64,000 bases of DNA, from NCBI RefSeq assembly GCF_053078305.1, contig NZ_CP166879.1. The stretch is one strand, 5' to 3'. The number at the start of each line of letters is the position of its first letter. The first letter of the stretch is position 1. The notes under the pieces were generated by a model. It made no database searches. It saw only the letters and a list, made by a program, of their open reading frames with translations, and had not been told where the DNA came from. The position numbers and the translations under genes are program-made. Below are positions 36,249-52,909 of the stretch, one piece after another.

Positions 36249-36283
36249 CGCTTCAATGGGAAATTGTTGTCGCCATTGTTCGA

Positions 36284-36586
36284 TTAACGCGTATTTTTCA
36301 GCGACTCCTGTGCAAAATACGCTGTTGCTTTTTTTAATATATCTCGCTCAAGGCGAGCTTCATTTAACGCCTTACGCAGTTGCAGAATTTCAGATTCCAG
36401 TTCAGCCACCGTGCGGGAACCAGGAGTACCGAGCCCTTTTCTGGCGGCGGTAACCCATTGTCCTAAAGTGCCTTCAGGAAGAGATAATCGGGAAGCGCCT
36501 TCACTGATCGAAAGTTGATTTTCAAGAACCGTTCTGACAGCTTCGGCTTTGAACTCTTTAGAGTAACGTTGGGTTTTTCTGCTCAT
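36284..36586 (-). CDS. IS600 OrfA (HTH transposase subunit)
   Basis: 100-aa ORF, HTH plus leucine-zipper-like region typical of IS3 OrfA. Confidence 0.85.
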   Translation of the reverse strand: MSRKTQRYSKEFKAEAVRTVLENQLSISEGASRLSLPEGTLGQWVTAARKGLGTPGSRTVAELESEILQLRKALNEARLERDILKKATAYFAQESLKNTR

Positions 36587-38628: not shown

Positions 38629-38677
38629 GAAAAAACAACAAAAGGACGTGGAATATTAATCAACAGGAGAAATTTCT

Positions 38678-39397
38678 GTGAATGTTAACTTTTTCGTCAC
38701 CTGCATTGGTGATGCGTTTAAATCCCGGATGGCACAAAAGAGTGTGCTGTTACTGGAGCAATTGGGTTGCAATGTCCATTTCCCCGAAAAGCAGGGATGT
38801 TGTGGTCAGCCAGCGATAAATGGCGGTTATGTTCGTGATGCCATCCCGGGCATGAAAAATCTCATATCTTCGCTGGAAGAGAATGACTGGCCGGTAGTAT
38901 CTCCTGCCGGGTCATGCACTTACACGATAAAAAATTACGCTCGCTATCTCAGTGAAGAACCTGAGTGGGCGGCACGAGCTGAAAAAGTGGCTGAACGCCT
39001 GCATGATTTGACATCATTTATAGTAAATCATCTTGGCATCACAGATGTTGGGGCAAAACTCAATGGTCGCGCTGTGTACCATCCCTCCTGCAGCCTTTCC
39101 CGTAAGCTGGGTGTAACCAGAGAGCCGCTTTTGCTACTTGAGAATGTACAGGGGCTTGAGCTACTGCCGTTTCACGCTCAGGAAACGTGCTGCGGGTTTG
39201 GCGGCACATTCTCTGTAAAAATGGCGGAGATCTCTGGTGAAATGGTGAAAGAGAAAGTCGGGCATATTATGGATGTTAAACCTGATTTTCTTATCGGGGC
39301 TGACGCCAGTTGCCTGCTAAACATCGGCGGTCGGCTTAACCGTGAAGGGCATCCTGTAAAAGTGATGCATATTGCTGAAGTCCTGATGCACAGATGA
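38678..39397 (+). CDS. lutA: Lactate utilisation protein A (LutA/YkgE-like, cysteine-rich CCG-domain Fe-S oxidoreductase)
   Basis: 239-aa ORF, GTG start with AGGAGA RBS; two CCG-type cysteine motifs (CCGQPA, CCGFGG). Confidence 0.82.
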   Translation: MNVNFFVTCIGDAFKSRMAQKSVLLLEQLGCNVHFPEKQGCCGQPAINGGYVRDAIPGMKNLISSLEENDWPVVSPAGSCTYTIKNYARYLSEEPEWAARAEKVAERLHDLTSFIVNHLGITDVGAKLNGRAVYHPSCSLSRKLGVTREPLLLLENVQGLELLPFHAQETCCGFGGTFSVKMAEISGEMVKEKVGHIMDVKPDFLIGADASCLLNIGGRLNREGHPVKVMHIAEVLMHR

Positions 39398-39407
39398 GGT
39401 AAACAGA

Positions 39408-40823
39408 ATGTCTTTGAAAACAAGTGATATCAGGTTTAAAGAGCGTATCCGTATTCAGATTCAGGACCCGATCATGCGAAAAGCTGTGGCTAACGCACAG
39501 GAGCGCATAGGGACTAATCGACAGAAAATGGTTGATGAACTGGGACACTGGGAGGAATGGCGTTCACGAGCTGAACAGATTCGTCGGCATGTTCTGGAAA
39601 ATCTTGATGCTTATTTGTATCAATTGTCCGAAAAGGTTACTGCGAATGGCGGGCATGTATATTTTGCCCGTACCAGAGAGGATGCAACCAGTTACATACT
39701 GAAGGTGGCGAAAGAAAAAAACGCCAGGAAGGTTGTTAAATCCAAATCAATGGTGACTGAGGAAATTGGCATGAATGCCGTTCTTCAGAAAGCCGGGATA
39801 CCCGTGATTGAAACGGACCTTGGGGAATATATTCTTCAGCTAGCACATGAGCCACCATCGCATGTGGTTGTGCCGGCAATACATAAAGATCGCCATCAAA
39901 TCCGCAGAGTTTTACATGAACATCTGGGGTATGACGGGCCTGAAACTCCAGAAGCAATGACATTGTTCATCCGTGAGAAAATCAGACAAGATTTTCTGAG
40001 TGCTGAAGTTGGCGTAACGGGGTGTAACTTTGCCGTTGCAGAAACAGGGTCAGTCTGCCTTGTTACAAACGAAGGCAACGCACGGATGTGCACCACATTA
40101 CCTAAAACACATATTGCTGTTATGGGTATGGAGCGTATTGCTCCGACATTCCAGGAGGTGGATGTTCTGATTACCATGCTTGCAAGGAGTGCTGTCGGGG
40201 CGAGACTGACAGGTTATAACACCTGGCTTACAGGCCCCAGAGAAGAAGGACATGTTGATGGTCCGGAAGAGTTCCATCTCGTTATTGTTGACAATGGGCG
40301 TTCAGAGATTCTCGGCTCAGAATTCAGCGATGTATTGCGATGTATCCGCTGCGGTGCCTGCATTAATACCTGCCCGGCTTATCGTCAGATTGGTGGGCAT
40401 GGTTATGGTTCAATCTACCCGGGGCCAATCGGCGCGGTTATTTCCCCATTGCTTGGTGGATATGAAGACTTTAAGGATTTACCCTATGCCTGCTCATTGT
40501 GCACTGCCTGCAATGGGGTATGTCCTGTAAAAATACCTCTGGCAACGCTAATACAAAAACATCGCCAGGTTATGGCAGAGTCTGAAATCACACCATTAAC
40601 GGAACGCCGTATAACCAGAGCATTCAATTACATAAACAGCCATCCGGCGTTGTGGAAGGTAGGTATGGTTGCTGGGGCCAAAACAGCCCGTCTGTTCATC
40701 AGGAAAGGAAAAACGCCGATTAGTGTTGGGGCGATAAAAGAATGGACTGAAGCCAGAGACCTGCCATCACCTGATGGAGAAAGCTTCCGTAGTTGGTTCA
40801 AGCGACATAAGAAGGAGGGGTAA
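39408..40823 (+). CDS. lutB: Lactate utilisation protein B (LutB/YkgF-like, 4Fe-4S ferredoxin + LUD domain)
   Basis: 471-aa ORF with two CxxCxxCxxxCP ferredoxin motifs (CIRCGACINTCP, CSLCTACNGVCP). Confidence 0.85.
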   Translation: MSLKTSDIRFKERIRIQIQDPIMRKAVANAQERIGTNRQKMVDELGHWEEWRSRAEQIRRHVLENLDAYLYQLSEKVTANGGHVYFARTREDATSYILKVAKEKNARKVVKSKSMVTEEIGMNAVLQKAGIPVIETDLGEYILQLAHEPPSHVVVPAIHKDRHQIRRVLHEHLGYDGPETPEAMTLFIREKIRQDFLSAEVGVTGCNFAVAETGSVCLVTNEGNARMCTTLPKTHIAVMGMERIAPTFQEVDVLITMLARSAVGARLTGYNTWLTGPREEGHVDGPEEFHLVIVDNGRSEILGSEFSDVLRCIRCGACINTCPAYRQIGGHGYGSIYPGPIGAVISPLLGGYEDFKDLPYACSLCTACNGVCPVKIPLATLIQKHRQVMAESEITPLTERRITRAFNYINSHPALWKVGMVAGAKTARLFIRKGKTPISVGAIKEWTEARDLPSPDGESFRSWFKRHKKEG

Positions 40824-40826
40824 TTT

Positions 40827-41525
40827 ATGGAAAACAGAGAGGAATTTCTCGTTGCGATCGCCAGAAAGCTTGGCAGACCAGTAAGACATATTCCCGAAGC
40901 AATGCCGGAGCCTGTAAATACGCTGGCTACGACACGTTTAACAGAGTTGACATCAGACCAACGCTGTGAGGCGTTTATTAAATTTGCCTCGGAAGTGATG
41001 CTTGCCGAGTGTGTTCTGGTGTCGCCTGAGAACGCACCATCAACAGCCTTAGACATCTGTTGGAAGTTCGGTTCCGGGCCAGTCATTATCAGCAACGATC
41101 AACGACTGGTCGATACAGGGATTACGCCATTGCTACAAAAAGAAATGGACGCTGCTCTGTGGGATCCGGAGAAGGGCGATGAAAATATCCATCTTGCTGA
41201 AAAGGCAAAAACTGGTGTCGTTTTCGCTGAGTATGGGCTGACAGAATCAGGAGGCATTGTCTTATTCTCCGCACCAGAACGTGGGCGCTCAGTAAGCCTT
41301 TTGCCTGAAGCATCATTATTTGTTTTACGTAAAAGCACCATTCTCCCCAGAGTGGCGCAGCTTGCGCAAAAACTTCATGATATGGCTCAGGAAGGACAAC
41401 GGATGCCGTCCTGTATAAATCTGATTGGAGGCCCAAGTTCTACTGCAGATATAGAACTGATCAAAGTTGTTGGCGTACATGGTCCTGTACATGCAACCTA
41501 TTTGATCATTGATGATTGCGATTAA
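40827..41525 (+). CDS. lutC: Lactate utilisation protein C (LutC/YkgG-like, LUD domain)
   Basis: 232-aa ORF immediately after lutB; operon context. Confidence 0.78.
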   Translation: MENREEFLVAIARKLGRPVRHIPEAMPEPVNTLATTRLTELTSDQRCEAFIKFASEVMLAECVLVSPENAPSTALDICWKFGSGPVIISNDQRLVDTGITPLLQKEMDAALWDPEKGDENIHLAEKAKTGVVFAEYGLTESGGIVLFSAPERGRSVSLLPEASLFVLRKSTILPRVAQLAQKLHDMAQEGQRMPSCINLIGGPSSTADIELIKVVGVHGPVHATYLIIDDCD

Positions 41526-41728: not shown

Positions 41729-41957
41729 GTAAGCGTAAACTGACCACCGTATGTAGCCATGATGCCAGTATTGGTAACGTAGGTGCACCCCTATCTATTT
41801 TTGTAGAACCGGAGGAAACAGACCAGATAGTTTAAATGAGCTGGTTATACGTAACATAATTGTAAGCGTAAACTGACCGCCGTATGTAGCCATCAGACGA
41901 AAATTGGTAACTTAGACGCCCATCTGATATAGACGGACATCTAAGTATGGAATTACA
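41729..41957. repeat. Two tandem solo copies of an IS66-family terminal inverted-repeat segment
   Basis: GTAAGCGTAAACTGACC(A/G)CCGTATGTAGCCAT at 41729 and 41863, near-identical to the end of the IS66 element at 53769-53798. Confidence 0.65.
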
Positions 41958-41985
41958 TGAACCGCCCCGGAAATCCTGGAGACAT

Positions 41986-42211
41986 CTGGCCACCCTGATT
42001 CCTTCCCGTAACAACTGACGCCAGACTTTACGCACATCGTATACGCACGGTATCTTTTTCTTCAGCCAGTCATCACGCTGCGCACGGGCATTGCGTTTAT
42101 CAGGATGATGTCGCTGTTGCTGACAGTGGTAATACGTTGACGGGGCAATATGCAGTTCACTGCATACCGGTCCGATCCCGTACTGCTCACGCGACTTATC
42201 CAGCAGTGGCA
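41986..42211 (-). pseudogene. IS629 OrfB, truncated after ~75 codons
   Basis: MPLLDK...HIAPSTYYHCQQQRHHPDKR matches IS629 OrfB N-terminus then runs into the terminal IR. Confidence 0.7.
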
Positions 42212-42538
42212 TTATTTTTTCCAGGGGCGGTCGAACTCCGCCTTCGCAAAATAAGTGGAAGCCTGGCGAAGGATATCGTTACTGCGGCTCAGTTCACGAT
42301 TTTCACGTTCCAGCTCTTTCAGACGCTGACGTTCAGTGGTGGTGAAACCACCATCACCGCCCCCAATATCCTGCTCATGCTGGAGTACCCAGACGTGCAG
42401 AGTCTCCGGTGTACAGCCAATCTTAGGGGCAATAGAACAAATTGCTGTCCATTGTGAGTCATATTCGCCCTGACTTTCCAGAACCATACGAACTGCCCGT
42501 TGACGGACTTCGGGGGAAAAACGTGTATTTTTAGTCAT
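42212..42538 (-). CDS. IS629 OrfA
   Basis: 108-aa ORF MTKNTRFSPEVRQRAVRMV... recognised as IS629/IS1203 OrfA. Confidence 0.85.
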   Translation of the reverse strand: MTKNTRFSPEVRQRAVRMVLESQGEYDSQWTAICSIAPKIGCTPETLHVWVLQHEQDIGGGDGGFTTTERQRLKELERENRELSRSNDILRQASTYFAKAEFDRPWKK

Positions 42539-42752: not shown

Positions 42753-44300
42753 CTACTTGCGTAGCGATAAAATTGCCCGTGCGGTTTCAGCACGGTTATA
42801 GATCTGCATTTTTTTTATTGCAGCATCCACATCTTCACCGCTTTTCTTATTCAGTTTAATCAGAAACTCAACAGGTAATAGCGAAGCTAAATTTTCAAAT
42901 TTTGATTCAGACCAAGTAATGGTTGCAACAGCCCCTTCAGTTCTCTTAATCATTAGTTTTTTAAGTAATTCTAAACGCTCTGGCTCAACAGTTATATAAC
43001 CAATCGGCAGGGTTAATGCACTATCAGAATTAGGTTGACCGTGGTATTGCACCAAAGCAATCACATCAGGAATTAAGAGGATCTCCAAACGATCAAATTT
43101 AGCCTCTGAAGTAAGGCCAATACCGGTAGGAAAACGACCTAAGTGCCGCTTACGCTCTTGACGTTTTTCACCTTCATCTGCACTTGAGTGTAAAAGCGAA
43201 ATGCGAGCAATCTTATCATCGGCATAATTGCCAAGTATATCGCCTAGAGCGCGAGTAAAACGCGAAAGTTGACTACCATTAGCTCCCCACAGTGGTACTT
43301 TACTGCTATACCACAGCGCTTTTGGAGCTGTTTTACCTATATAATCACGTAATGCATTATGCAACATACTAATGAACAGCTTAGAATTGTGCGGCAAATA
43401 AACAGCCCCTAACATGCCGGTAGTCAATGAAGTACCGTAGCCAGTTTTACGTTGTTCACGAGCCTCTATCCAGCCGGAATAGTTGAACTTATAACCATTA
43501 GCAAATTGTAACAACACTTTATCATTTGCTAGTTTACAGAAATCTTCACAGTCGATACCGAATTCATCTAGTTTATGTTCTCCCAAAAAATCTGCGATAT
43601 GAGCTTCCAGCTCGTTTGAAAGCGGCAGCCGGGTGTTACCTAAATATTCATAGGAACGAGTAAATTTCTGCGGCTCAATGCTCCCAGCAGAAACACCGTA
43701 GCTAACCTCTATCTCTATTGGGAGCTGCACCATCTCATGCGAACTACAGCCCATTATCTTATATAATTTAGTCCGTTGACGCTCATACTCGCTGTTGCGG
43801 CTGAGCAAAAGATGGTGCCGAAACTGGGAACTAAAAGCCTCTGTTACCGCAGCAGCATCTCCCCCGATCTGATGCCGCGGCAATAGCTCTGGCAGTCCAG
43901 AAGTAAAACGACGATTTGGTTGCGGTTTACATATCGAAAGAGTTAGTAGATCGAATGCAACTTCCTCCGTACATTCTTGATATTTAACTAAACTTGGCTT
44001 CCCACCATTATTAGCTGCATGCTTACGTAGGAATGAGCTAGCCTCAATATGCCCATCAGGATTAATGTTGATCAGTCTGTTAGCCAGCAACCCATCAAGC
44101 AATACCTCTCGCTCACGATCAGTTAGACCAAAGTAATTCTGTAACTCGCTGGGATAGAGTTGATCAAAAATCAGCAGCAAGCGACATGCAAACTGTTCAA
44201 TTCCAGGCATCAGTTTTTCAGTGGTCAAAGCGCAGTTGATCTTGTAACTACGCGCAGGTAGTAAAACGGTAATCAGATTACCCAGACGTGGTTCTGACAT
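42753..44300 (-). CDS. Hypothetical 515-aa protein, translationally coupled partner of the NERD-kinase-helicase gene
   Basis: Long ORF with start ATG overlapping upstream TAA (TAATG); no recognisable motif by eye. Confidence 0.8.
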   Translation of the reverse strand: MSEPRLGNLITVLLPARSYKINCALTTEKLMPGIEQFACRLLLIFDQLYPSELQNYFGLTDREREVLLDGLLANRLININPDGHIEASSFLRKHAANNGGKPSLVKYQECTEEVAFDLLTLSICKPQPNRRFTSGLPELLPRHQIGGDAAAVTEAFSSQFRHHLLLSRNSEYERQRTKLYKIMGCSSHEMVQLPIEIEVSYGVSAGSIEPQKFTRSYEYLGNTRLPLSNELEAHIADFLGEHKLDEFGIDCEDFCKLANDKVLLQFANGYKFNYSGWIEAREQRKTGYGTSLTTGMLGAVYLPHNSKLFISMLHNALRDYIGKTAPKALWYSSKVPLWGANGSQLSRFTRALGDILGNYADDKIARISLLHSSADEGEKRQERKRHLGRFPTGIGLTSEAKFDRLEILLIPDVIALVQYHGQPNSDSALTLPIGYITVEPERLELLKKLMIKRTEGAVATITWSESKFENLASLLPVEFLIKLNKKSGEDVDAAIKKMQIYNRAETARAILSLRK

Positions 44301-47300
44301 TAGTTGTTATCTCCAAGCAGACTTTGACCACACAGGATTTGGTAGTTGGGTTCATCTACTGCAACCTGTTTACTAATAAATTCATGAACGTTTCCAAGTG
44401 CTGAATCATTATTGGTCTTTGACCACATACGCCTTGCTCCCAGAATCAATAACCTTTCTTGAGCTCGCGAAATAGCAACGTTTATTCGCGGCGCGTCGCG
44501 CAGGAAACCTTGTAGTTTGTTGGGATTATCGCGAACCAGACTGAGGATAATTATCTTGTTTTCCTGGCCCTGATATGAATCAACGGTATCGATCTTGATC
44601 AAACCACGTAACGATGCAGCCCATTCAGCCCGACTGATAGCATTGTCAATTTCCTCTTTTTGCTGACGATACATTGTGATTATACCAATAGGATATGGCT
44701 GTTCTGTGGTAATAGTTTGCTCAAGCTGTGCAATGCAGCCATCACTCGACAATGACTGCAAAGCCTCTAGCAGTAGCCGGACTTCTCGTTGATTATAGTA
44801 ACGACCATTACCCTTATGTTCTTCTGCACCTGCTTCATTAGGGCTCGAACTATCGATCCAAGTAACAGTTTTGTTCCAAGGGATTGGTAACTTGGAATAC
44901 CAATCTGGCGAGACTTTCCTCGATGAATGCAGTTTACCGATATCTTGAGCGTAAAAGCACTCCGATACTAACTCGCCAATTGGTTCTACCATTCGATATT
45001 GAGTATCGAGTGTTACGCCGCCTGTTGCTTTAAAAGCACGTTCAAAATCAGACTCATAAAAGATCCCTTTCCCGAGTTCTAATTTCTTAGAGGCTAACTT
45101 AAGATGCTGTTGATGATAGAATGGTGGCAATTGTTTATGATCCCCTACCAACAGCACCCGCTTGCCTGATTGCAGCGCTACCATCAATTCAGCAGCTTGT
45201 GCTCGGCCAGCCTCATCAACTATTACCCAATCAAAGCTGGACTCAGCTAGTTCTAGTCGACGATTCCCAACACCAACAAGAGTTCCACAAACCAATCGCT
45301 TACTTTTGAACATAAATCGATCAAATCCAGCCTCGCCGCCGCGTAATACATCCATCCACTCTTGGCTCATTTCCAATAGCTGCATAAAACGTTCAAGGTT
45401 CTCTGGATTGTTATAATTGTATTGTATGGCAACTTGCTCAGCCAACTGTCTTATCAAGGTTTCATCATAGACAAGAGTTTTCAGCAAGCTGTCATCGAAT
45501 ATTGAGTTAATAATTTCTTGTGTTCGCAGTTTAAGCTGATTGCTTTGTTCTAATAATTCAGCCAGTCGCTCTTGATGACTAATACTACTACTCTTTATTT
45601 GTTCTACTTTATCCAGCTCACGGCTATATTGGCCATATGTCACCATCAAGGGATTCAGCGTACGATGTAACTGACATAACTGTTGGACTAATAATGGGGC
45701 CATCCCTAGGCGCTTTCCTAGGGAGCTAACTCGCAGATCATATTCACGGTGAAATTTATGCTGAATCTGTCGCTGAAGAGCTTTAGTTGCAACACTTAGC
45801 ATACCCTCATCAATCATAAGTTCATTACCAATACGTACTGTATCCAGTTCCATTCCTTTCGTATGGCAGAGCTCTCGAGCCTTGATGGCTACATTATCAA
45901 CAGAGGCATGGGATTGCCCGACCAAAAGAATGTTATTCACACCGCAATGTTGATACAGATAGTGAATAAATTTTGAAATAAATGTTGTTTTACCTGTTCC
46001 AGGTGGTCCCTGCAGAACTCCAACTGGTCCAAACTCGACCAACTGTTGAAATGCCATTAGCTGCTGTTCATTAAAACGTTGTCCAGGCTGATCATAAAGT
46101 GCGCGTAATGTCTCCGCGGATGGCCGCGGTTGCATTTGCTGCATGCAGGGTTTCTGGTGGTAATCAAAATACTGTGGCAGATGCTGGATCTCTGCTTTGT
46201 TTTCAATTACCCGTTGAAGGGCTCTTTGACGCAACTCTCTTGATGATTTGTCACGGATCGATTCCAATTGTAGCTGGCTGCCGCTACTAATTCGCTTACG
46301 AGCAGCATCAAAATCAAAGCGAATAGCCAATAGACTCGGCGTAGTCTCACTTAGCTGCAATTCCCCTAATTGCACTGATTCACGCTTATCTTTAATATAA
46401 ACAATGATCTTATCATCAAGTTCAAAGCTGAGGTCAGCACCGGATTCCGTAGTATATGGGTAGAGTAAGCAACCACTCGGTGATTCCTGAAAGTCAGTAG
46501 AGTCGATGTTGACTATATCTCGTAGGTCTACTTCTGTATCAGATAATGCCTGCCATAACTCAATTGGGCTTGACTCACTACTATCGAAGTCATCTTCATC
46601 CATCTCTTGATTAGGATTAGCTCGCTCAATGATGGCATCAATTACTGGCTCGAGGTTAAACAGTAGTTCAATAAAAGTATTACGCTGATTAAGTGAGCCA
46701 CGTTGTAATGAAAGTTGAGTATTAATTTTAGCCTGGGAATATTTACCAGCCTTTATACTTTCTTCGATCGATAATCCTTTTTCATACACTATTCTATTAA
46801 TAGTGCGATTATCAGGATCTAAGTCTATCAATAGCCGCTCTCCTAGGCCAGTGATGTAACAACGCAATTCATGCGCAAAGCGTGGGTTAGATGACCAGTT
46901 ACATTGAAAATAATAGATCCCATCATTTTGTTCTAGAAGCTTCACTTCTTGCGGCCAATCATCTGTGCCCCAGCAAACAGGAATTACCTTATCCTGTGAC
47001 TCAGACGCCACAACTTGATTAATCTCAGCTTGTTCCGGTGCTCGAATTGACTGCAGCAAAGGATCGAGCGCGATAGGTATACCGTCAACGGTTTGTTTTG
47101 CGCGTTCTAGCTCAGCCTGCACCAGTACTGGCATATCTTCACTAAATAGCTCCTCCACCATACGATATACTGCAAAGCAATCTCGCCCAAAAGCATCAGT
47201 ACTTTCGGGATTCTCTGGCTGGTAGCGATTATCTGCAGTTAATTCATCACTGAATTCAAGCAATCCAATCAGAGTAATTACTGTCTGCTCCCCGACTTGT

Positions 47301-49258
47301 ACCAGCAGTTTCTCTGGGCAAAGATCTCCATGAGGTAACTGCTTTTCATGAAAAGCATGAATGGTGTTGATCAACTTTTCCGCAATTGTAAAACGTTGGG
47401 ATTGTACTAACACGTTCTCAGCAATAAACTGTGACCACGGTAGGCCATCCACATACTCGCTCACTACATACAAGCCGCCTTGTCCTAATAGTCCATAGGA
47501 CTGCACCTTAGGAGTTGGCAGATTTATATGCGTAAGCTTATCGATCCGTTGCTTAAAAGCGTGGATACGGCGGTTAACACCAGGTTGTTGAGGGGTCAAA
47601 ATAACACCATCCCACAATTTTACCTGCAGAGCTTTCCCACCTTGTTCACAGTGATAACTGATGCTGCCAGTCGTAGCAATAGCAGCAAGAGCAGAGTAAA
47701 CCATAGACAACTGTTCAGGAAGTGGAGGAAACTCAATTAACACACCAACGCTGTTCATCCCTTCGCGAAAGAATTTGTTTTGCTTTAATTCTTGATAAAT
47801 CTGGTTAGCTTCATCAAATTCTTGGCTATGTTCCTTAGTAGCTGCATTAAACTCATTGAGCATTATGTCCGCACGTGGAAAGCGTTTACTTGGCTCAAGG
47901 TTAAGAGCTTGCTCAAACCAGCTATTTAGAATACCGCTAAAAGGATCAGTTAATGGAGCTCTCCATTCAGGCATCTGTCCAGGAGTCAGTAATGATTCAC
48001 CTGCAAAACAAATACGATAAGCAATTACAGCCAACATGAATACATCTAGGCGATAGGGCTCAACTGCTTCTTCAAAAGCATCTTCGGGCAAAATATATGG
48101 AGCACTTTGCAATGTCGGACGCAATGACTCTAGGCTATTATGTCCCTCCAGTGAGGCTGCGCCAAAGCCAGTAACGACAATGCTCTTCTGATCCCCTGCG
48201 TACCATAGATTGTGCGGGTCAATATCACAATGACTGATACCCAAGCTATGTAATTCCGAGAATGGAGCTAATAATGCACGAACGCGATCAATACGCTCAG
48301 ATTTACTCCATCCGTCAGCTTCGCTATCTAGAATCTCATCTAATCGGCTAAAACTACGGCGTAACTCATACAGCTCACGGGCATCATCAGTTATATCCTC
48401 CTCGGATAGTTCCCTTACAGCACGCAACATATAATCCTGCATAGTTGCGCTGCCATGACGAACTAGGCGACCGACTCGAGTCTCACGCAGAGCTATCTCA
48501 GCCCACAATGTTTGCATTGCGTTTGCTACACCCAAGGCATCAAAGTTCCACTGCCGTAGCAGACCTCTGTGTTGACTATTGTCTTTGTGGGTAGCCCTGA
48601 ATTCGTTGTAGACCATGTGAGGGTGACTAAAGAATGGCTTATCGTTCGCAAGATAACCGCTTTCTTTTAGTGGCAAAGGCCTGACTTTTGGTCCTTCAAA
48701 GAAGGACTTAATTATAGGTAATGCCTCATCAGAATTTGGTCGAGGCTTTCCCCCTTCAAAAAGATGAAAAAAGTTAGTGTGTTGCACCAGCTTTTCGTAA
48801 TTTTTTGGGTTACCTATAGTCAAGAATTCATCACGGGTATGAACATAGCGCCTCTCACTTAATGGCAAGTTTTCAGGACCAGCTGTGCCACACAGCACTA
48901 CATGAGCCTCAACATGCAAAAAGTAACCCAGCTTACGAGATAACTCTTCCTGCAACAAATCTTTTAGTCGCAGTGCATGCTCACGCTTGATCTGATAGGG
49001 ACTTTTGCCTCGTGACTTACCATTTTGCAGCCACTTCCCCCCTTCAAATGTGATGTTACCATTCCACTCTTTAAGCTCGACTAATAGCAGACGGTCAGCA
49101 GTAATAATTAGCATATCGATTTCCATCGACCCTTGGCTATCAGTAACAACTAAGCCAGCATAGCCAAACCAACTATCTGGTAACTGCTTAACCATCATAT
49201 CAACTGTTTTGGTTTCGCTGCGGTGCAGGCCAGCACCACCTACTATCTGATACTTCAC
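44300..49258 (-). CDS. 1652-aa multidomain protein: N-terminal NERD-like nuclease domain, two protein-kinase-like domains, C-terminal SF1 (Upf1/DNA2-like) helicase
   Basis: NERD-like D...ELK region (aa ~45-65); kinase catalytic-loop-like HCDIDPHN (aa 343-350) and HGDLCPEK (aa 643-650); Walker A GPPGTGKTT (aa ~1084), Walker B VIVDEAG, SF1 motif TVDSYQGQE. Confidence 0.85.
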   Translation of the reverse strand: MKYQIVGGAGLHRSETKTVDMMVKQLPDSWFGYAGLVVTDSQGSMEIDMLIITADRLLLVELKEWNGNITFEGGKWLQNGKSRGKSPYQIKREHALRLKDLLQEELSRKLGYFLHVEAHVVLCGTAGPENLPLSERRYVHTRDEFLTIGNPKNYEKLVQHTNFFHLFEGGKPRPNSDEALPIIKSFFEGPKVRPLPLKESGYLANDKPFFSHPHMVYNEFRATHKDNSQHRGLLRQWNFDALGVANAMQTLWAEIALRETRVGRLVRHGSATMQDYMLRAVRELSEEDITDDARELYELRRSFSRLDEILDSEADGWSKSERIDRVRALLAPFSELHSLGISHCDIDPHNLWYAGDQKSIVVTGFGAASLEGHNSLESLRPTLQSAPYILPEDAFEEAVEPYRLDVFMLAVIAYRICFAGESLLTPGQMPEWRAPLTDPFSGILNSWFEQALNLEPSKRFPRADIMLNEFNAATKEHSQEFDEANQIYQELKQNKFFREGMNSVGVLIEFPPLPEQLSMVYSALAAIATTGSISYHCEQGGKALQVKLWDGVILTPQQPGVNRRIHAFKQRIDKLTHINLPTPKVQSYGLLGQGGLYVVSEYVDGLPWSQFIAENVLVQSQRFTIAEKLINTIHAFHEKQLPHGDLCPEKLLVQVGEQTVITLIGLLEFSDELTADNRYQPENPESTDAFGRDCFAVYRMVEELFSEDMPVLVQAELERAKQTVDGIPIALDPLLQSIRAPEQAEINQVVASESQDKVIPVCWGTDDWPQEVKLLEQNDGIYYFQCNWSSNPRFAHELRCYITGLGERLLIDLDPDNRTINRIVYEKGLSIEESIKAGKYSQAKINTQLSLQRGSLNQRNTFIELLFNLEPVIDAIIERANPNQEMDEDDFDSSESSPIELWQALSDTEVDLRDIVNIDSTDFQESPSGCLLYPYTTESGADLSFELDDKIIVYIKDKRESVQLGELQLSETTPSLLAIRFDFDAARKRISSGSQLQLESIRDKSSRELRQRALQRVIENKAEIQHLPQYFDYHQKPCMQQMQPRPSAETLRALYDQPGQRFNEQQLMAFQQLVEFGPVGVLQGPPGTGKTTFISKFIHYLYQHCGVNNILLVGQSHASVDNVAIKARELCHTKGMELDTVRIGNELMIDEGMLSVATKALQRQIQHKFHREYDLRVSSLGKRLGMAPLLVQQLCQLHRTLNPLMVTYGQYSRELDKVEQIKSSSISHQERLAELLEQSNQLKLRTQEIINSIFDDSLLKTLVYDETLIRQLAEQVAIQYNYNNPENLERFMQLLEMSQEWMDVLRGGEAGFDRFMFKSKRLVCGTLVGVGNRRLELAESSFDWVIVDEAGRAQAAELMVALQSGKRVLLVGDHKQLPPFYHQQHLKLASKKLELGKGIFYESDFERAFKATGGVTLDTQYRMVEPIGELVSECFYAQDIGKLHSSRKVSPDWYSKLPIPWNKTVTWIDSSSPNEAGAEEHKGNGRYYNQREVRLLLEALQSLSSDGCIAQLEQTITTEQPYPIGIITMYRQQKEEIDNAISRAEWAASLRGLIKIDTVDSYQGQENKIIILSLVRDNPNKLQGFLRDAPRINVAISRAQERLLILGARRMWSKTNNDSALGNVHEFISKQVAVDEPNYQILCGQSLLGDNN

Positions 49259-49725: not shown

Positions 49726-50353
49726 CTATTCGTTATAGTGTTCGAACGCCTCCGCAAGGTTTTTTACTGCCGTTAACACGTCCGGTTTAGGTATGATACT
49801 GATGTAATCGCTCTTCATCGTTTTCACGAACCGTTCTCTCATTCCATTACTCTGAGGGCTACTGACTGCCGTCGTGCAGAGCTCCAGATTCAACTCTCTG
49901 GCGAACTGCCGTGTTTCATGAGTTGTATAAGCCGAACCGTTATCGGTCAGCCACTGGATGGGCCATCCCGGTCTATCGCCAAAGCGTTTTTCTATCGCTC
50001 CTGACATGACATCCTGCACCGTTGCTTTGCCATAACCTCCCGTGCTTGCGGCCCAGTCTATGGATTCAAGATCGCAACAGTCCAGTGCGAACGTGACACG
50101 CAGTTTTTCGTCATCATCACAACCGAACTCAAAGCCATCGGCACACCAGCGCGGGTCGCTTTCCTTCACCGATATTCGGGCCTTTATGTTCCCTCTGCGG
50201 TCGTGAAGGTTTGTCATGTAATAACAACAGGTTATTCTCGCTCATTATTCGATAAACGCGATTTGCATTCACGAACTGCAGTCCTTCGTTAAGACTGCCG
50301 TCTGAGAATAGCCCAGACACGACGATAGCCATCGAATCGCTGAACAGCGTCAT
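49726..50353 (-). pseudogene. IS2-like (IS3 family) transposase OrfB remnant, frameshifted
   Basis: ORFs 49726-50217 and 50129-50353 together resemble IS2 InsD (NANRVYRIM..., [34 protein letters not shown]) in two frames. Confidence 0.6.
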
Positions 50354-50459: not shown

Positions 50460-50789
50460 ATGTCAAAACCCCGATGGACCATTGAACAGAAAAGGCAGCA
50501 CGTTGCTGCCTGGCGCGCCAGTGGTCTTACACGTCAGCAATACTGTGAACTCAACGATATTCCCTTCACATCACTTCGCGAATGGCCGCAGGATGTCGCA
50601 AAAGCTGAACGCCGGGCAAATGAACCGACCGTTCTTCCCGTTCATATTGCGCCACCACTGCATGCTGATGTACCACAGCCCGTCACGAATGAGCCAGTCA
50701 CGCTCTTCCTTCCCGGCGGAGTACGGATGTGCTGTCAGCCGTCACAACTTACCGATGTCTTCAGGGCGCTCAAATATGCTCAGTCCTGA
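50460..50789 (+). CDS. IS66-family TnpA (orf1) of outer element
   Basis: 109-aa ORF followed by overlapping tnpB and tnpC in the canonical IS66 order. Confidence 0.7.
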   Translation: MSKPRWTIEQKRQHVAAWRASGLTRQQYCELNDIPFTSLREWPQDVAKAERRANEPTVLPVHIAPPLHADVPQPVTNEPVTLFLPGGVRMCCQPSQLTDVFRALKYAQS

Positions 50790-51168
50790 TAATGTCTTCA
50801 TCGCGATTAAACCTGTTGACATGCGCCGGGGCATCGACACACTGACGCAGTATATACAGGATGAACTCCGGTCGACATGGCATGAGGGAGCCGCCTTCGT
50901 CTTTGTTAACAAAGTCCGTTCGCGTATCAAAGTTCTCCGGTGGGATAAACACGGGGTGTGGTTGTGTACCCGCCGTCTGCACAAAGGCAGCTTCCGCTGG
51001 CCACGTGCAAATGATGCTGCCTGGCACCTCACTCCCGACGAGTTTAACTGGCTGATTGCCGGTGTTGACTGGCAGCAGGTTAAGGGACATGACCTGACGA
51101 AATGGGGCTGGCAGAATGAACCTGAACTGCGCCCTGAAAACACGCAAAATACACTGCTAACTCAGTGA
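50776..51168 (+). CDS. IS66-family TnpB (orf2) of outer element
   Basis: ORF 50482-51168; start set at MLSPDNVFIAIKPVDMRRG, paralogous to the TnpB at 52940-53290. Confidence 0.7.
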   Translation: MLSPDNVFIAIKPVDMRRGIDTLTQYIQDELRSTWHEGAAFVFVNKVRSRIKVLRWDKHGVWLCTRRLHKGSFRWPRANDAAWHLTPDEFNWLIAGVDWQQVKGHDLTKWGWQNEPELRPENTQNTLLTQ

Positions 51169-51174
51169 AAAATA

Positions 51175-51265
51175 ATGAATATCCGTATCCGGAGTGGTAT
51201 ACTCCCCTGTATGGATATCTCCGCTCTCAACACCACGAATGACATCGAAAAACTGCGTGCTATGG
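51175..51265 (+). pseudogene. IS66-family tnpC of outer element, 5' part (interrupted by nested IS66 insertion)
   Basis: ATG at 51175; reading frame continues exactly across the insertion into 53807-55320 when one copy of the 8-bp duplication is removed. Confidence 0.7.
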
Positions 51266-51295
51266 GTAAGCGTCAACGGAGCACCGTATTGACGC

Positions 51296-52909
51296 TTATT
51301 TATTGGTGAGTACTACGTTCCATGGCAGGAGTTCATCAACTCGGTTGGAAGGCCATTCTGGCAGTACGCTCAGGATATGGCGCAGATACGCTTCCGGATC
51401 GATACCGTTCAGACGGCAGGTGCCGATCAGCCCGTACAACAGTGCTCCACGCTCGCCGCCGTGATCGCTGCCAAAGAACATAAAGTTTTTCTTTCCGAGA
51501 CAGACTGCACGAAGCGCTCTTTCCGCAGCATTATTATCCGCCTCCGCCAGACCGTCATCACTGTAATAACAGAGGGCATCCCACTGATTCAGTACATAGC
51601 TGAACGCTTCGCCCAGTCTGGATTTTTTCGACAGCGTACCATTCTTCTCCACCATCCATTCATGCAGTGACGTCAGTAACACTTTGCTTCGCTGCTGCCT
51701 GACGGCAAGACGCTCTGACTCCGGTAATCCCCGTATTTCATCCTCGATGGCGTACAGTTCACTGATTCGCTTCAGGGCTTCTTCTGCCGTCGCACTTTTG
51801 CTGCTGATGTATACATCGTGGATTTTTCGCCGGGCATGGGCCCAGCACGCAACTTCTGTCAGTGCACCACCTTCACGTTCTGCACTGAACAGCCGATCGT
51901 AACCGCTGAACGCATCCGCCTGCAGGATACCCCGGAAGGGACGAAGGTGTTGTACCGGATGTTTTCCCTGCCTGTCTGGTGAGTAGGCGAACCAGACCGC
52001 CGGTGGCTCTGATGAGCCCGCATTCCGGTCATCCCGGACATACGTCCAGATGCGTCCTGTTTTTGCCTTTTTTCTGCCCGCTGCCAGCACTTTTACTGGT
52101 GTGTCGTCAGTGTGAACCTTGCGGGTGTTCATCACGTAACGGTACAGGGTATCATTCAGCAGAGTCATTAACTGACAACATGCGTCAACCCAGTTGGAGA
52201 GTAATGCCCGGCTCAGTTCGATGCCCTGGCGGGCAAAGATTTCACTCTGACGATACAGTGGCAGGTGTTCGCAGTATTTTCCCGTTAACACGCGGGCAAG
52301 TAATCCGGAGCCCGCGATGCCGCGCTCTATCGGGCGGGACGGCGCTGGCGCTTCAACTATACAGTCACATTTTGTACAGGCTTTTTTTACCCGAACAGTG
52401 CGGATCACTTTCAGGGCGCTACTCACCAGTTCCAGCTGCTCAGCACTGACTTCCCCCAGATAATCCAGCTCACTGCCACACTCCGGGCAACAACTTTCTT
52501 CAGGCTCCAGACGGTGTATTTCACGGGGAAGATGTGCCGGTAACGGACGACGATGACGTGACTGTCGCAACTGGCGGGGAACCTGCGGGTCATCCTCACG
52601 CCCACTGTAACGATCGCTTTCCTGTTCGCGTTGTTTCAGTTGGGCCTCAGCCTGTTCAACCTCACGCTGCAGTTTTTCAGAACGGGTACCGAACAACATC
52701 CGGCGCAGTTTTTCTATCTGGGCCCTCAGATGTTCTATTTCCCGCTCCTCCTCTTCGATCTTTTCCTCGGCACGTGCCAGTGCAGAGCGCAGGAAGGCCT
52801 CCGTCTCTTCAACCAGACTCAGTTGCTGATCTTTCTGACGGAGGGCTTCAGCCTGCTCAGAGAGCAGCCTTTCCAGCTCAGTGATACGAATGAGGTATTT
52901 CCGACTCAT
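51296..52909 (-). CDS. IS66-family transposase TnpC
   Basis: 537-aa ORF with N-terminal coiled-coil, CPECG zinc-finger-like motif and DDE region. Confidence 0.9.
   Translation of the reverse strand: MSRKYLIRITELERLLSEQAEALRQKDQQLSLVEETEAFLRSALARAEEKIEEEEREIEHLRAQIEKLRRMLFGTRSEKLQREVEQAEAQLKQREQESDRYSGREDDPQVPRQLRQSRHRRPLPAHLPREIHRLEPEESCCPECGSELDYLGEVSAEQLELVSSALKVIRTVRVKKACTKCDCIVEAPAPSRPIERGIAGSGLLARVLTGKYCEHLPLYRQSEIFARQGIELSRALLSNWVDACCQLMTLLNDTLYRYVMNTRKVHTDDTPVKVLAAGRKKAKTGRIWTYVRDDRNAGSSEPPAVWFAYSPDRQGKHPVQHLRPFRGILQADAFSGYDRLFSAEREGGALTEVACWAHARRKIHDVYISSKSATAEEALKRISELYAIEDEIRGLPESERLAVRQQRSKVLLTSLHEWMVEKNGTLSKKSRLGEAFSYVLNQWDALCYYSDDGLAEADNNAAERALRAVCLGKKNFMFFGSDHGGERGALLYGLIGTCRLNGIDPEAYLRHILSVLPEWPSNRVDELLPWNVVLTNK

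What the first reader, a model, noticed from the sequence alone, without database searches (positions are those of the whole stretch)
44300..49258. Kinase-like domains of the giant protein carry non-canonical catalytic motifs
The first kinase-like domain has HCDIDPHN where Hanks kinases have HRDLKPxN (Asp replaces the catalytic-loop Lys) and VTGFG where DFG is expected (Thr replaces the Mg-binding Asp). The second has HGDLCPEK, closer to Kdo/aminoglycoside-phosphotransferase-type loops. This suggests a pseudokinase or atypical phosphotransferase pair acting as sensor/scaffold rather than two canonical Ser/Thr kinases, by analogy with tandem-kinase immune proteins.
Basis: inference. Interest (0 to 1): 0.65.

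Follow-up and report, generated by a model that had tools for sequence, protein, structure and literature searches.

The report
Mokosh defence protein with dead kinases
The giant gene is the MkoA protein of a known anti-phage system (type I Mokosh), and its two kinase-shaped domains both lack the aspartate that holds magnesium. It is a local variant of a nuclease, dead-kinase, live-kinase module already described in other defence proteins, not a new kind of system.

Summary
ORF 44300-49258 (-) encodes a 1652-aa E. coli protein that matches PADLOC MkoA end to end. The next ORF matches MkoB. This is a type I Mokosh anti-phage cassette.

MkoA reads NERD nuclease, kinase-fold domain KD1, kinase-fold domain KD2, middle region, Upf1-like helicase. 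Both KDs are confident Hanks-type folds.

- **KD1:** degenerate in all 187 full-length relatives examined. The beta3 lysine is always Arg and the DFG aspartate is never Asp.
- **KD2:** canonical in 151 of 187 relatives. A 19-member clade that includes this protein has lost both magnesium ligands (N650K in 16 of 19, D665G in 19 of 19). The domain is still under purifying selection, with no relaxation relative to KD1.
- **KD2 fold:** its nearest solved folds are Hanks kinases, not Kdo or APH.

NERD + inactive kinase + active kinase is already published for PglW (BREX type 2) and DndF. I found no paper describing it for Mokosh.

Verdict: observation confirmed with corrections, and the pseudokinase reading is supported by sequence only. 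It is a new variant of a known kind, of modest interest.

The parts
44300..49258 (-). mkoA: 1652-aa NERD / KD1 / KD2 / middle region / SF1 helicase protein of type I Mokosh
   Evidence: PADLOC MkoA PDLC03921: E = 0, 1305 bits, aa 2-1642 against profile 2-1598 of 1607. Pfam finds NERD, Pkinase, Kdo, AAA_11 and AAA_12. 100% identical copies lie on the chromosome of 69 complete E. coli genomes, where RefSeq calls it 'AAA domain-containing protein'.
48893..49219 (-). NERD (PD-(D/E)xK) nuclease domain, aa 14-122, catalytic residues intact
   Evidence: Pfam NERD 53.4 bits. D48, E61 and K63 are kept in 98 of 99 relatives. It is the most conserved domain: pN 0.07, 89% aa identity within the clade.
47789..48658 (-). 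KD1, aa 201-490: Hanks-type kinase fold, degenerate in the whole family (pseudokinase)
   Evidence: AF2 pLDDT 91.8. Foldseek matches CaMKII, PknB and the STK40 pseudokinase, TM up to 0.70. PDB profile hits Stk1 and PknB at E 1e-16. Across 187 relatives: beta3 Arg 187, alphaC Glu 187, HRD Asp 186, DFG Asp 0.
48554..48556 (-). Arg235 of KD1, at the beta3 (VAIK Lys) position
   Evidence: It lies in predicted strand 34-40 of the model, which is aa 231-237. Invariant Arg in 187 of 187 relatives. Coordinates verified.
48209..48232 (-). KD1 catalytic loop HCDIDPHN (aa 343-350)
   Evidence: Aligns with HRDIKPQN of S. aureus Stk1. Among 99 close relatives H343 and D345 are invariant, Arg344 is the family norm (91 of 99) with Cys only in the query's close relatives, and Asn350 is kept in 94. 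In the wider set of 187 the Asn is replaced by S, C or R in other branches.
48161..48175 (-). KD1 'VTGFG' (aa 362-366), with Gly364 at the DFG-Asp position
   Evidence: The profile alignment to Stk1 and PknB places DFG Asp on G364. This column is G, S, H, N and a few other residues, never D, in 187 relatives.
47024..47773 (-). KD2, aa 496-745: compact Hanks-type kinase fold; canonical in most relatives, Mg ligands lost in this clade
47618..47620 (-). Lys547 of KD2, the beta3 ATP-binding lysine (retained)
   Evidence: Aligns with the VAVK lysine of StkP. Lys in 176 of 187 relatives and in 18 of 19 clade members.
47309..47332 (-). KD2 catalytic loop HGDLCPEK (aa 643-650): Asp645 kept, Asn replaced by Lys650
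   Evidence: The family consensus HGDLxPxN aligns with HRDLKPQN. K650 aligns with KD1 N350. The position is N in 163 of 187 relatives. In the query clade it is K in 16 of 19.
47252..47269 (-). KD2 'IGLLEF' (aa 664-669): Gly665 at the DFG-Asp column and Glu668 for a second conserved Asp
   Evidence: hhalign puts G665 on KD1 G364. D665 is found in 166 of 187 relatives and G in all 19 clade members. D668 becomes E in 19 of 19.
46109..47023 (-). Middle region aa 746-1050, not characterised here
   Evidence: No significant Pfam hit. pN 0.19. It was not modelled.
44432..46075 (-). Upf1/DNA2-like SF1 helicase, aa 1062-1609, motifs intact
   Evidence: AAA_11 at 2e-46 and AAA_12 at 5e-45. Walker A GPPGTGKT at aa 1084-1091 and VIVDEAG at aa 1345-1351.
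42753..44300 (-). mkoB: 515-aa partner protein of the 'HTH' type, without a PLD motif; its ATG overlaps the mkoA stop by one base
   Evidence: PADLOC MkoB PDLC03923 at 1e-61. No Pfam or NCBIfam hit, and no HxK tripeptide anywhere in the protein. A homologue follows mkoA in all 9 relatives examined. It is 22.6% identical (E 7e-14) to the MkoB of the verified SEC470 system.

Best explanation
**Identity (shown).** This is a type I Mokosh anti-phage cassette. MkoA is a single chain with a NERD nuclease, a pseudokinase (KD1), a second kinase-fold domain (KD2), a middle region and an Upf1-like SF1 helicase. MkoB is an HTH-type partner without a PLD nuclease. The N-terminal 750 aa have the same tripartite layout (NERD, inactive kinase, active kinase) as PglW of BREX type 2 and some DndF proteins. 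The NERD + KD1 part is demonstrably homologous to PglW.

**State of the two domains (shown from sequence).** KD1 is a permanent pseudokinase. The whole family has Arg for the beta3 Lys and no DFG Asp, yet keeps a strictly conserved fold and pocket (R235, E259, H343, D345). KD2 is a competent-looking Hanks kinase in about 80% of relatives. In the E. coli / Shewanella / Pantoea / Vibrio clade it has lost both Mg-binding residues (N650K, D665G). It keeps the ATP-binding Lys547 and Asp645.

**How it works (inferred).** In this clade the tandem kinase module acts as a non-catalytic coupling and regulatory element, possibly one that still binds nucleotide. I propose that it links sensing by the helicase (phage RNA or replication intermediates) to the intact NERD nuclease and to MkoB. 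In relatives with a canonical KD2, phosphotransfer probably adds a signalling or effector step, as in PglW, where the kinase mutation K677A abolishes both autophosphorylation and defence.
For: **System identity**
- PADLOC MkoA E = 0 and MkoB 1e-61.
- The two-gene pair is conserved in nine unrelated genomic contexts.
- A distant relative with the same architecture, E. coli SEC470 SG199 (MkoA 1652 aa, MkoB labelled 'HTH'), is marked verified in Table S2 of the Millman 2022 preprint.

**Kinase folds**
- AF2 pLDDT 91.8 and 94.6.

**Motif register**
-.

**Family pattern**
- KD1: R187 / E187 / D186 of 187, and no DFG Asp in any.
- KD2: complete catalytic set in 151 of 187; G665 in all 19 clade members.

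**KD2 is maintained, not decaying**
- ORFs are intact across four or more genera.
- pN 0.20 against saturated pS 0.77.
- KD2/KD1 divergence ratio is 1.47 in the degenerate clade and 1.53 in the canonical clades.
- Clade-specific substitutions cluster in the KD2 active site: D665G, D668E, G670S, G680Q, R694C.

**Other enzymatic domains are intact**
- NERD D48/E61/K63 in 98 of 99 relatives.
- Helicase Walker A and B present.

**Homology and published precedent**
- NCBIfam BREX_PglW 79 bits on aa 14-417 and MAD6 132 bits on aa 10-486.
- PglW domain map: NERD 12-130, atypical kinase 195-490, Hanks kinase 530-816, with the K677A result (PMC4365076).
- 'Inactive pseudo-kinase and active S/T/Y-kinase' described in PglW and DndF (PMC12839542 and PMC10853773).

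**A verified Mokosh I with a non-canonical kinase**
- ETEC H10407 MkoA reads HRHLDENA and LTGFEW, and is marked verified. Its register rests only on a weak hhalign match.
Against: - No biochemical data exist for this protein, and lack of activity cannot be read from sequence. CASK lacks the DFG Asp yet phosphorylates without a cation. KD2 keeps Lys547 and Asp645, so residual or atypical activity is possible.
- The coupling of helicase, kinase module and NERD is inferred from domain order and from PglW. It is not shown.
- I could not model the full-length protein or MkoA-MkoB, so no interface evidence exists.
- Synonymous sites are saturated, so dN/dS values are only qualitative.
- The alphaC acidic partner of K547 is not firmly assigned. 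Position 573 is E or D in only 117 of 187 relatives.
- The SEC470 system that was tested is only about 27-29% identical to this MkoA, and its closest relative in my set has a canonical KD2. Defence has therefore not been shown for the degenerate clade.
Confidence: 0.55

Rival explanations
1. KD2 of this clade is still an enzyme: an atypical, cation-independent (CASK-like) protein kinase. Lys650 may supply the positive charge normally given by Mg2+. Phosphorylation would remain part of the defence mechanism.
For: - Lys547 (beta3) is kept in 18 of 19 clade members and Asp645 (catalytic base) in 18 of 19.
- The domain evolves under the same relative constraint as canonical KD2s.
- The active-site changes are concerted rather than random: N650K, D665G, D668E, G670S, G680Q, R694C.
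- CASK has a DFG Asp-to-Gly change and is active without cations (PMC4718504).
- In PglW the kinase is essential for defence (PMC4365076).
Against: - There is no Gly-rich loop, which the pseudokinase review cites as a good predictor of activity in CASK-type cases.
- N650 is not uniformly replaced: K in 16, N in 2, M in 1 of the 19. One member also has D645N and another K547T. That looks more like tolerance of loss than a new fixed mechanism.
- Other lineages degenerate KD2 independently and in different ways, for example P0223, P0236, P0191, P0237 and P0165.
Confidence: 0.25
2. The kinase-fold domains, KD1 in particular, are integrated decoys or sensors that phage proteins bind or modify, as proposed for the pseudokinase domains of plant tandem-kinase resistance proteins. 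Binding would release the NERD nuclease.
For: - KD1 keeps a strictly conserved pseudo-active site (R235, W237, E259, H343, D345 invariant in the 187-relative set, and D405 and R459 nearly so). That argues for a conserved ligand or partner rather than a mere spacer.
- The same NERD + KD1 unit recurs in three or four different defence systems: MkoA, PglW, MAD6 and DndF. This is what one expects of a portable sensor-effector unit.
Against: - Sensors facing phage proteins usually evolve fast. KD1 is among the slower domains (pN 0.14, 77-78% identity), and the fastest parts are KD2 and the middle region.
- No phage partner is known.
- The resemblance to plant TKPs is an analogy, not homology, and rests on my own knowledge.
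Confidence: 0.12
3. The non-canonical motifs mark a decaying, non-functional gene or domain, a relic in an IS-ridden island.
For: - The cassette is flanked by IS3 and IS66 fragments.
- A 686-aa truncated homologue is common in Salmonella (P0015).
Against: - The 1652-aa ORF is intact and 100% identical in 69 complete E. coli genomes.
- Its 90% cluster holds 1090 member sequences.
- Intact orthologues exist in Shewanella, Pantoea, Vibrio and Photobacterium at saturated synonymous divergence, with pN/pS of 0.09-0.26 in every domain.
- There is no relaxation in KD2.
Confidence: 0.03

Closest known systems
Type I Mokosh (MkoA/MkoB), NERD-containing subtype; verified example E. coli SEC470 SG199 (Millman et al. 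2022 preprint)
   Same: - Two-gene cassette.
- MkoA of 1652 aa with NERD, two kinase-fold domains and a COG1112/Upf1-like helicase.
- MkoB without a PLD, labelled 'HTH'.
- KD1 carries the same degenerate signature (ALLRVW, AHRD, LSNF).
   Different: - Only about 27-29% identity in MkoA and 22.6% in MkoB.
- The nearest sampled relative of SEC470 MkoA (P0167) has a canonical KD2 (HGDLHPEN, LIDIPDF), whereas this clade has HGDLCPEK and LIGLLEF.
- Published descriptions mention a single 'STK domain', not a pseudokinase-kinase tandem.
PglW of BREX type 2 / Pgl (S. coelicolor)
   Same: - N-terminal NERD (12-130), atypical kinase without an ATP site (195-490) and Hanks kinase (530-816). The domain boundaries are almost the same as in MkoA (14-122, 201-490, 496-745).
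- NERD + KD1 is homologous: NCBIfam BREX_PglW 79 bits and PADLOC PglW 1e-22.
- Described as 'inactive pseudo-kinase and active S/T/Y-kinase'.
   Different: - The C-terminal half of PglW is wHTH modules plus an inactive STAND ATPase, not an SF1 helicase.
- PglW works within a methyltransferase-based system.
- The second kinase of PglW is active and required (K677A). Here it lacks both Mg ligands.
DndF variants and MAD6 (MADS) that carry the NERD + kinase module
   Same: - A subset of DndF has wHTH, NERD, inactive and active S/T/Y kinase domains fused to its core (PMC10853773).
- The NCBIfam MAD6 model matches aa 10-486 at 132 bits.
   Different: - Their C-terminal cores and system partners differ.
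- I did not examine their catalytic residues.
CASK and other eukaryotic pseudokinases / atypical kinases; JAK JH2-JH1 tandems
   Same: - Kinase folds that lack the DFG Asp (GFG in CASK) and may still bind nucleotide.
- A pseudokinase placed N-terminal to a kinase in one chain.
- The JAK2 and TYK2 pseudokinases and STK40 appear among the structural hits.
   Different: No specific evolutionary relationship. CASK keeps a Gly-rich loop, which these domains lack. This is an analogy only.
Plant tandem kinase proteins
   Same: Immune proteins built from two kinase-fold domains, one of them degenerate.
   Different: They are not homologous beyond the kinase superfamily, and have no nuclease or helicase fused. 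The comparison rests on my general knowledge and was not tested here.

Membership tests
Type I Mokosh | MkoA with a COG1112 / Upf1-like SF1 helicase | tested here: met
   AAA_11 at 2e-46 and AAA_12 at 5e-45. PADLOC MkoA PDLC03921 E = 0 over the full length. Walker A and B present.
Type I Mokosh | Kinase (STK) domain in the helicase protein | tested here: met
   Two kinase-fold domains. The fold is met. The catalytic motifs are not canonical.
Type I Mokosh | Adjacent mkoB gene | tested here: met
   PADLOC MkoB PDLC03923 at 1e-61. Its start overlaps the mkoA stop. It is conserved next to mkoA in 9 relatives.
Type I Mokosh | PLD (HKD) nuclease in MkoB | tested here: not met
   No HxK(x)4D motif, no HxK tripeptide and no Pfam hit. 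The same holds for the verified SEC470 system, whose MkoB is labelled 'HTH'. The subtype is therefore accepted as Mokosh I in the source paper despite lacking a PLD.
Type I Mokosh | Protects against phage | not testable with these tools
   Only distant relatives (SEC470, H10407) were tested by Millman et al..
Hanks-type (eukaryotic-like) protein kinase, catalytically competent | Bilobal protein-kinase fold | tested here: met
   KD1 and KD2 AF2 models against the PDB.
Hanks-type (eukaryotic-like) protein kinase, catalytically competent | beta3 (VAIK) lysine | tested here: not met
   This row scores the two domains as a pair. KD1 fails: Arg235, which is Arg in 187 of 187 relatives. KD2 meets the criterion on its own: Lys547.
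Hanks-type (eukaryotic-like) protein kinase, catalytically competent | Catalytic-loop Asp (HRD) and Asn | tested here: inconclusive
   Asp is present in both domains (D345, D645). Asn is present in KD1 (N350) but is Lys650 in KD2.
Hanks-type (eukaryotic-like) protein kinase, catalytically competent | DFG aspartate (Mg ligand) | tested here: not met
   Gly364 in KD1 and Gly665 in KD2.
Hanks-type (eukaryotic-like) protein kinase, catalytically competent | Phosphotransfer activity | not testable with these tools
   Needs biochemistry.
Pseudokinase (sequence definition: lacks at least one of VAIK Lys, HRD Asp, DFG Asp) | One or more of the three residues missing in a kinase fold | tested here: met
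   KD1 lacks two of the three. KD2 lacks the DFG Asp and also the loop Asn. The definition is taken from PMC4718504.
NERD + inactive kinase + active kinase module (PglW / DndF type) | N-terminal NERD REase with intact D...ExK | tested here: met
   Pfam NERD. D48/E61/K63 conserved.
NERD + inactive kinase + active kinase module (PglW / DndF type) | First kinase copy inactive | tested here: met
   KD1 pattern in 187 of 187 relatives. Homology to the PglW N-terminus.
NERD + inactive kinase + active kinase module (PglW / DndF type) | Second kinase copy with a full catalytic set | tested here: not met
   Met in 151 of 187 relatives but not in this protein or its 19-member clade (K650, G665).
- The best PDB profile hits are Stk1 and StkP.
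- Pfam on 30 KD2 sequences: Pkinase 27, Kdo 22, APH 20.
- The query's KD2 alone scores Pkinase 16.9, Kdo 16.1, both below cut-off.

The most novel reading that the evidence does not exclude
A widespread gammaproteobacterial clade of type I Mokosh works with no canonical kinase at all. Both kinase folds would then be nucleotide- or ligand-binding switches or decoys. They would gate a NERD nuclease in response to an Upf1-like helicase. That would be a bacterial double-pseudokinase immune module, showing that the NERD-kinase-kinase unit shared with BREX type 2, MADS and DndFGH signals by conformation rather than by phosphorylation.
Probability: 0.3. Interest if true: 0.6.

Novelty: new variant of a known kind. 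Interest (0 to 1): 0.35.

Why it matters
The mechanism of Mokosh is still unknown. Published accounts treat the kinase part of MkoA as a single 'STK domain'. Three points from this analysis give a concrete experimental handle:

- MkoA carries the same NERD / pseudokinase / kinase unit as PglW, DndF and MAD6.
- The first copy is never catalytic by canonical criteria.
- One natural clade, present in about 1.3% of complete E. coli genomes, has also lost the Mg ligands of the second copy without any relaxation of selection.

Comparing the E. coli protein with a canonical relative such as Yersinia rohdei P0021 would test whether phosphotransfer is needed for this recurrent defence module. The practical gain is also one of annotation: RefSeq currently names these genes 'AAA domain-containing protein' and 'hypothetical protein'.

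Tried and rejected
1. **PLD/HKD motif in MkoB.** None found. The PLD-effector model of Mokosh does not apply to this subtype.
2. **Quantitative dN/dS.** Synonymous sites are saturated (pS 0.75-0.84). I used only pN/pS and relative amino-acid divergence.
3. **Which Asp of 'LIDLLD[FY]G' is the Mg ligand.** I considered D668-F-G670 as the true DFG, which would make the query's E668 a conservative change. I rejected this. hhalign aligns column 665 with the KD1 DFG column, and 665 sits 2 residues after the predicted beta8 strand against 5 for 668. The HMMER alignments to Stk1 and StkP left this stretch unaligned, so some uncertainty remains.
4. **A compensating Lys or Asp elsewhere in KD1** (WNK-like relocation). 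No other invariant Lys in the N-lobe and no invariant Asp near the DFG column.
5. **Register of the ETEC H10407 MkoA kinase.** phmmer against the PDB gave nothing. hhalign against A1 gave only 4% probability, although the alignment looks sensible. I treat this as weak evidence.
6. **Literature.** No paper in the library combines Mokosh with pseudokinase, and I found no mechanistic Mokosh study.
7. **First MAFFT run on the full-length set.** It timed out. I repeated it on the N-terminal 1050 aa.

Full report
**1. What is at the coordinates**

Window 44300-49258 (minus strand) is one ORF of 1652 codons with a GTG start.
- HCDIDPHN at aa 343-350 (window 48209-48232)
- VTGFG at aa 362-366 (48161-48175)
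- HGDLCPEK at aa 643-650 (47309-47332)

Pfam finds the following on the protein:
- NERD, aa 14-122
- Pkinase, best stretch aa 317-418, 36.5 bits, above the 31.7 cut-off
- Kdo, aa 617-665, 23.2 bits, cut-off 21.3
- The SF1 helicase pair AAA_11 and AAA_12, aa 1062-1609

The DNA is E. coli. 71 of 5426 complete genomes carry it on the chromosome, 69 of them at 99% identity or more. RefSeq annotates it as 'AAA domain-containing protein' followed by 'hypothetical protein'.

**2. Identity of the system**

PADLOC's MkoA model PDLC03921 matches the protein end to end (E = 0, 1305 bits). The 515-aa ORF immediately downstream (42753-44300, start overlapping the mkoA stop) matches MkoB model PDLC03923 at 1e-61. 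This is type I Mokosh. Millman et al. [quoted passage not shown]

Their Table S2 lists three type I candidates:
- **SG199, E. coli SEC470, verified.** MkoA is 1652 aa and begins with a NERD domain. MkoB is 478 aa and labelled only 'HTH'.
- **SG202, ETEC H10407, verified.** MkoA is 1215 aa. MkoB is labelled HTH-PLD.
- **SG156, Bacillus, not verified.** Its kinase is fully canonical (HRDLKPSN, DFG).

The window's MkoB has no HxK(x)4D motif, not even an HxK tripeptide, and no Pfam or NCBIfam hit. It is homologous to the SEC470 MkoB (22.6% identity, E 7e-14). A homologue follows mkoA in all nine relatives whose DNA I fetched, in unrelated genomic contexts. The window therefore holds the NERD-containing, PLD-less subtype of type I Mokosh.

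**3. Are the two segments kinase folds?**

Yes, both. I built family alignments for KD1 (aa 198-492, A1) and KD2 (aa 496-745, A2) from 30 diverse relatives.

| | KD1 | KD2 |
|---|---|---|
| Best solved relatives by profile | S. aureus Stk1/PknB and M. tuberculosis PknB, E 1e-16 | Stk1 and StkP, E 7e-16 |
| AF2 mean pLDDT | 91.8 | 94.6 |

No Kdo, RIO or APH structure appears among the listed KD2 hits. On Pfam, 27 of 30 KD2 sequences hit Pkinase, 22 hit Kdo and 20 hit APH.

**4. Register of the catalytic residues**

In KD1, the profile alignment to Stk1 pairs HRDIKPQN with H-R-D-i-g-e-h-s, and 'LKIFDFGIA' with 'illSGFiaA'. It follows that:
- Asp345 is the HRD aspartate.
- Asp347 sits at the Lys168-equivalent position.
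- Asn350 is the loop asparagine.
- The DFG aspartate column holds Gly364.
- The predicted beta3 strand (model 34-40, aa 231-237) carries Arg235 where the VAIK lysine belongs. Glu259 opens the alphaC helix.

In KD2:
- Lys547 aligns with the VAVK lysine of StkP, and HGDLxPxN aligns with HRDLKPQN.
- HMMER left the DFG stretch unaligned.
- Profile-profile alignment of A2 against A1 puts Gly665 on KD1 Gly364 and Lys650 on KD1 Asn350.

Both domains of this protein therefore have Gly at the Mg-binding DFG position. KD2 also has Lys in place of the Mg-binding Asn.

**5. Family-wide pattern**

I collected 113 homologues and 150 representatives at 50% clustering. I aligned the 187 that are 1500 aa or longer.

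KD1 across 187 relatives:

| Position | Residue found |
|---|---|
| beta3 | Arg 187 |
| alphaC | Glu 187 |
| HRD Asp | 186 |
| DFG Asp | 0 (Gly 122, Ser 20, His 18, Asn 14, others 13) |
| alphaF Asp405 | 187 |
| Arg459 | 181 |

The loop Asn is kept only in the query's wider branch. KD1 is thus an ancient, strictly conserved pseudokinase.

KD2 has the full Lys/Asp/Asn/Asp set in 151 of 187 relatives.

The exception that matters here is a 19-member clade at 63% identity or more to the query. It includes E. coli, Shewanella, Pantoea, Vibrio and Photobacterium. Within it:
- Asp665 is Gly in 19 of 19.
- Asn650 is Lys in 16 of 19.
- His647 is Cys or Ser.
- Asp668 is Glu in 19 of 19.
- Further clade-fixed changes (G670S, G680Q, R694C) cluster around the same site.

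A few other lineages degenerate KD2 independently: P0223, P0236, P0191, P0237 and P0165.

**6. Is the degenerate KD2 decaying?**

No. Codon alignments of the query with six clade members show saturated synonymous divergence (pS 0.75-0.84) and low non-synonymous divergence in every domain:

| Domain | pN |
|---|---|
| NERD | 0.07 |
| Helicase | 0.13 |
| KD1 | 0.14 |
| Middle region | 0.19 |
| KD2 | 0.20 |

KD2 is the fastest-evolving domain, but it is so in all clades. The ratio (1 - identity KD2) / (1 - identity KD1) is 1.47 within the degenerate clade and 1.53 within the canonical clades at matched overall divergence. Losing the Mg ligands did not relax constraint on the domain.

The other enzymatic parts are intact. 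NERD D48/E61/K63 are kept in 98 of 99 relatives. The helicase has GPPGTGKT and VIVDEAG.

**7. Relation to what is known**

NCBIfam's BREX_PglW model matches aa 14-417 (79 bits), and the MADS kinase MAD6 model matches aa 10-486 (132 bits). PADLOC's PglW model matches aa 12-419.

Hoskisson et al. mapped S. coelicolor PglW as follows (PMC4365076):
- NERD at 12-130
- An atypical kinase without an ATP site at 195-490
- A Hanks kinase at 530-816

These boundaries are nearly the same as in MkoA. They also showed that K677A abolishes autophosphorylation and phage resistance.

[quoted passage not shown] It notes the identical arrangement in some DndF proteins (PMC12839542 and PMC10853773). Neither paper mentions Mokosh. 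No paper in the library combines Mokosh with pseudokinase. One review table lists NERD among Mokosh I domains.

So the module is known and the system is known. Two points appear to be undescribed:
- MkoA carries this tandem module.
- One clade has lost the catalytic metal ligands of the second copy.

**8. Mechanism**

*Shown:* domain identities, motif states, conservation and purifying selection.

*Inferred:* in this clade the KD1-KD2 unit works as a non-catalytic coupling or regulatory element, possibly one that still binds nucleotide, between the sensing helicase and the NERD nuclease and MkoB. In canonical relatives KD2 probably adds (auto)phosphorylation, as in PglW.

The main rival is a CASK-like, cation-independent activity of KD2. 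Lys547 and Asp645 are retained, and CASK lacks the DFG Asp yet is active. Against it:
- There is no Gly-rich loop.
- The replacement at position 650 varies (K, N or M).
- Two clade members each carry a further change, one D645N and one K547T.

A decoy or sensor role for KD1 is possible but unsupported. Gene decay is excluded.

The verified ETEC H10407 MkoA also appears to carry a non-canonical kinase (HRHLDENA, LTGFEW). Its alignment is weak, however.

**9. Verdict**

The pseudokinase reading is supported at the sequence level. It rediscovers a published module inside a published defence system, and adds one clade-specific twist that can be tested by experiment. Novelty: new variant of a known kind. 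Interest: 0.35.

Noticed in passing
window 42753-44300 (-): The MkoB partner has no PLD/HKD motif and no recognisable domain apart from a weak N-terminal match (aa 8-126) to the PLD-type MkoB model. This Mokosh subtype lacks the nuclease that defines the family in reviews, so the NERD domain of MkoA is the only predicted nuclease.
   Followed up: partly
window 44298-44302: The mkoA stop codon and the mkoB ATG overlap by one base (TAATG on the coding strand). Overlapping or abutting gene ends are seen in the relatives too (L001-L006, L008, L009). This suggests translational coupling.
   Followed up: partly
window 35430-36586, 41832-42538, 49726-50217, 50460-52909: The cassette is bracketed by IS3-family and IS66-family transposase genes and fragments. 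In E. coli strain 222 the flanks differ: more IS copies, a group II intron reverse transcriptase and broken T6SS genes. The two genes therefore move as a unit within an IS-rich island.
   Followed up: partly
protein P0015: A 686-aa homologue, 97% identical over NERD + KD1 + part of KD2, is named 'nuclease, partial' in Salmonella enterica. Its cluster has 1288 member sequences. It may be a widespread truncated allele or an assembly artefact.
   Followed up: no
window 37072-41525 (+) and 32693-34783 (+): Upstream of the island lie a lactate permease-like transporter, a three-gene lutABC-like lactate-utilisation set and a TonB-dependent receptor. These identifications are by eye from the translations and appear unrelated to the finding.
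   Followed up: no
Millman 2022 Table S2, not in the window: The verified ETEC H10407 type I MkoA (1215 aa) has a kinase-like domain reading HRHLDENA and LTGFEW. That would mean no HRD Asp and no DFG Asp. The only type I candidate with a fully canonical kinase (Bacillus SG156) was scored as not defending.
   Followed up: partly
L001 13957-16899; L004 1-2506; L010 2501-3400: Relatives of the cassette sit next to other defence genes: TerB + BrxC-like ATPase (Shango-like) in a Shewanella-clade genome, dynamin-like proteins (Eleos-like) in L004, and a BrxR/WYL regulator upstream in L010. This fits a defence-island location.
   Followed up: no
window 46109-47023 (-), MkoA aa 746-1050: The roughly 300-aa region between KD2 and the helicase has no family match. 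It contains an acidic low-complexity stretch (about aa 895-915) and evolves about as fast as KD2. It could be the variable sensing part.
   Followed up: no
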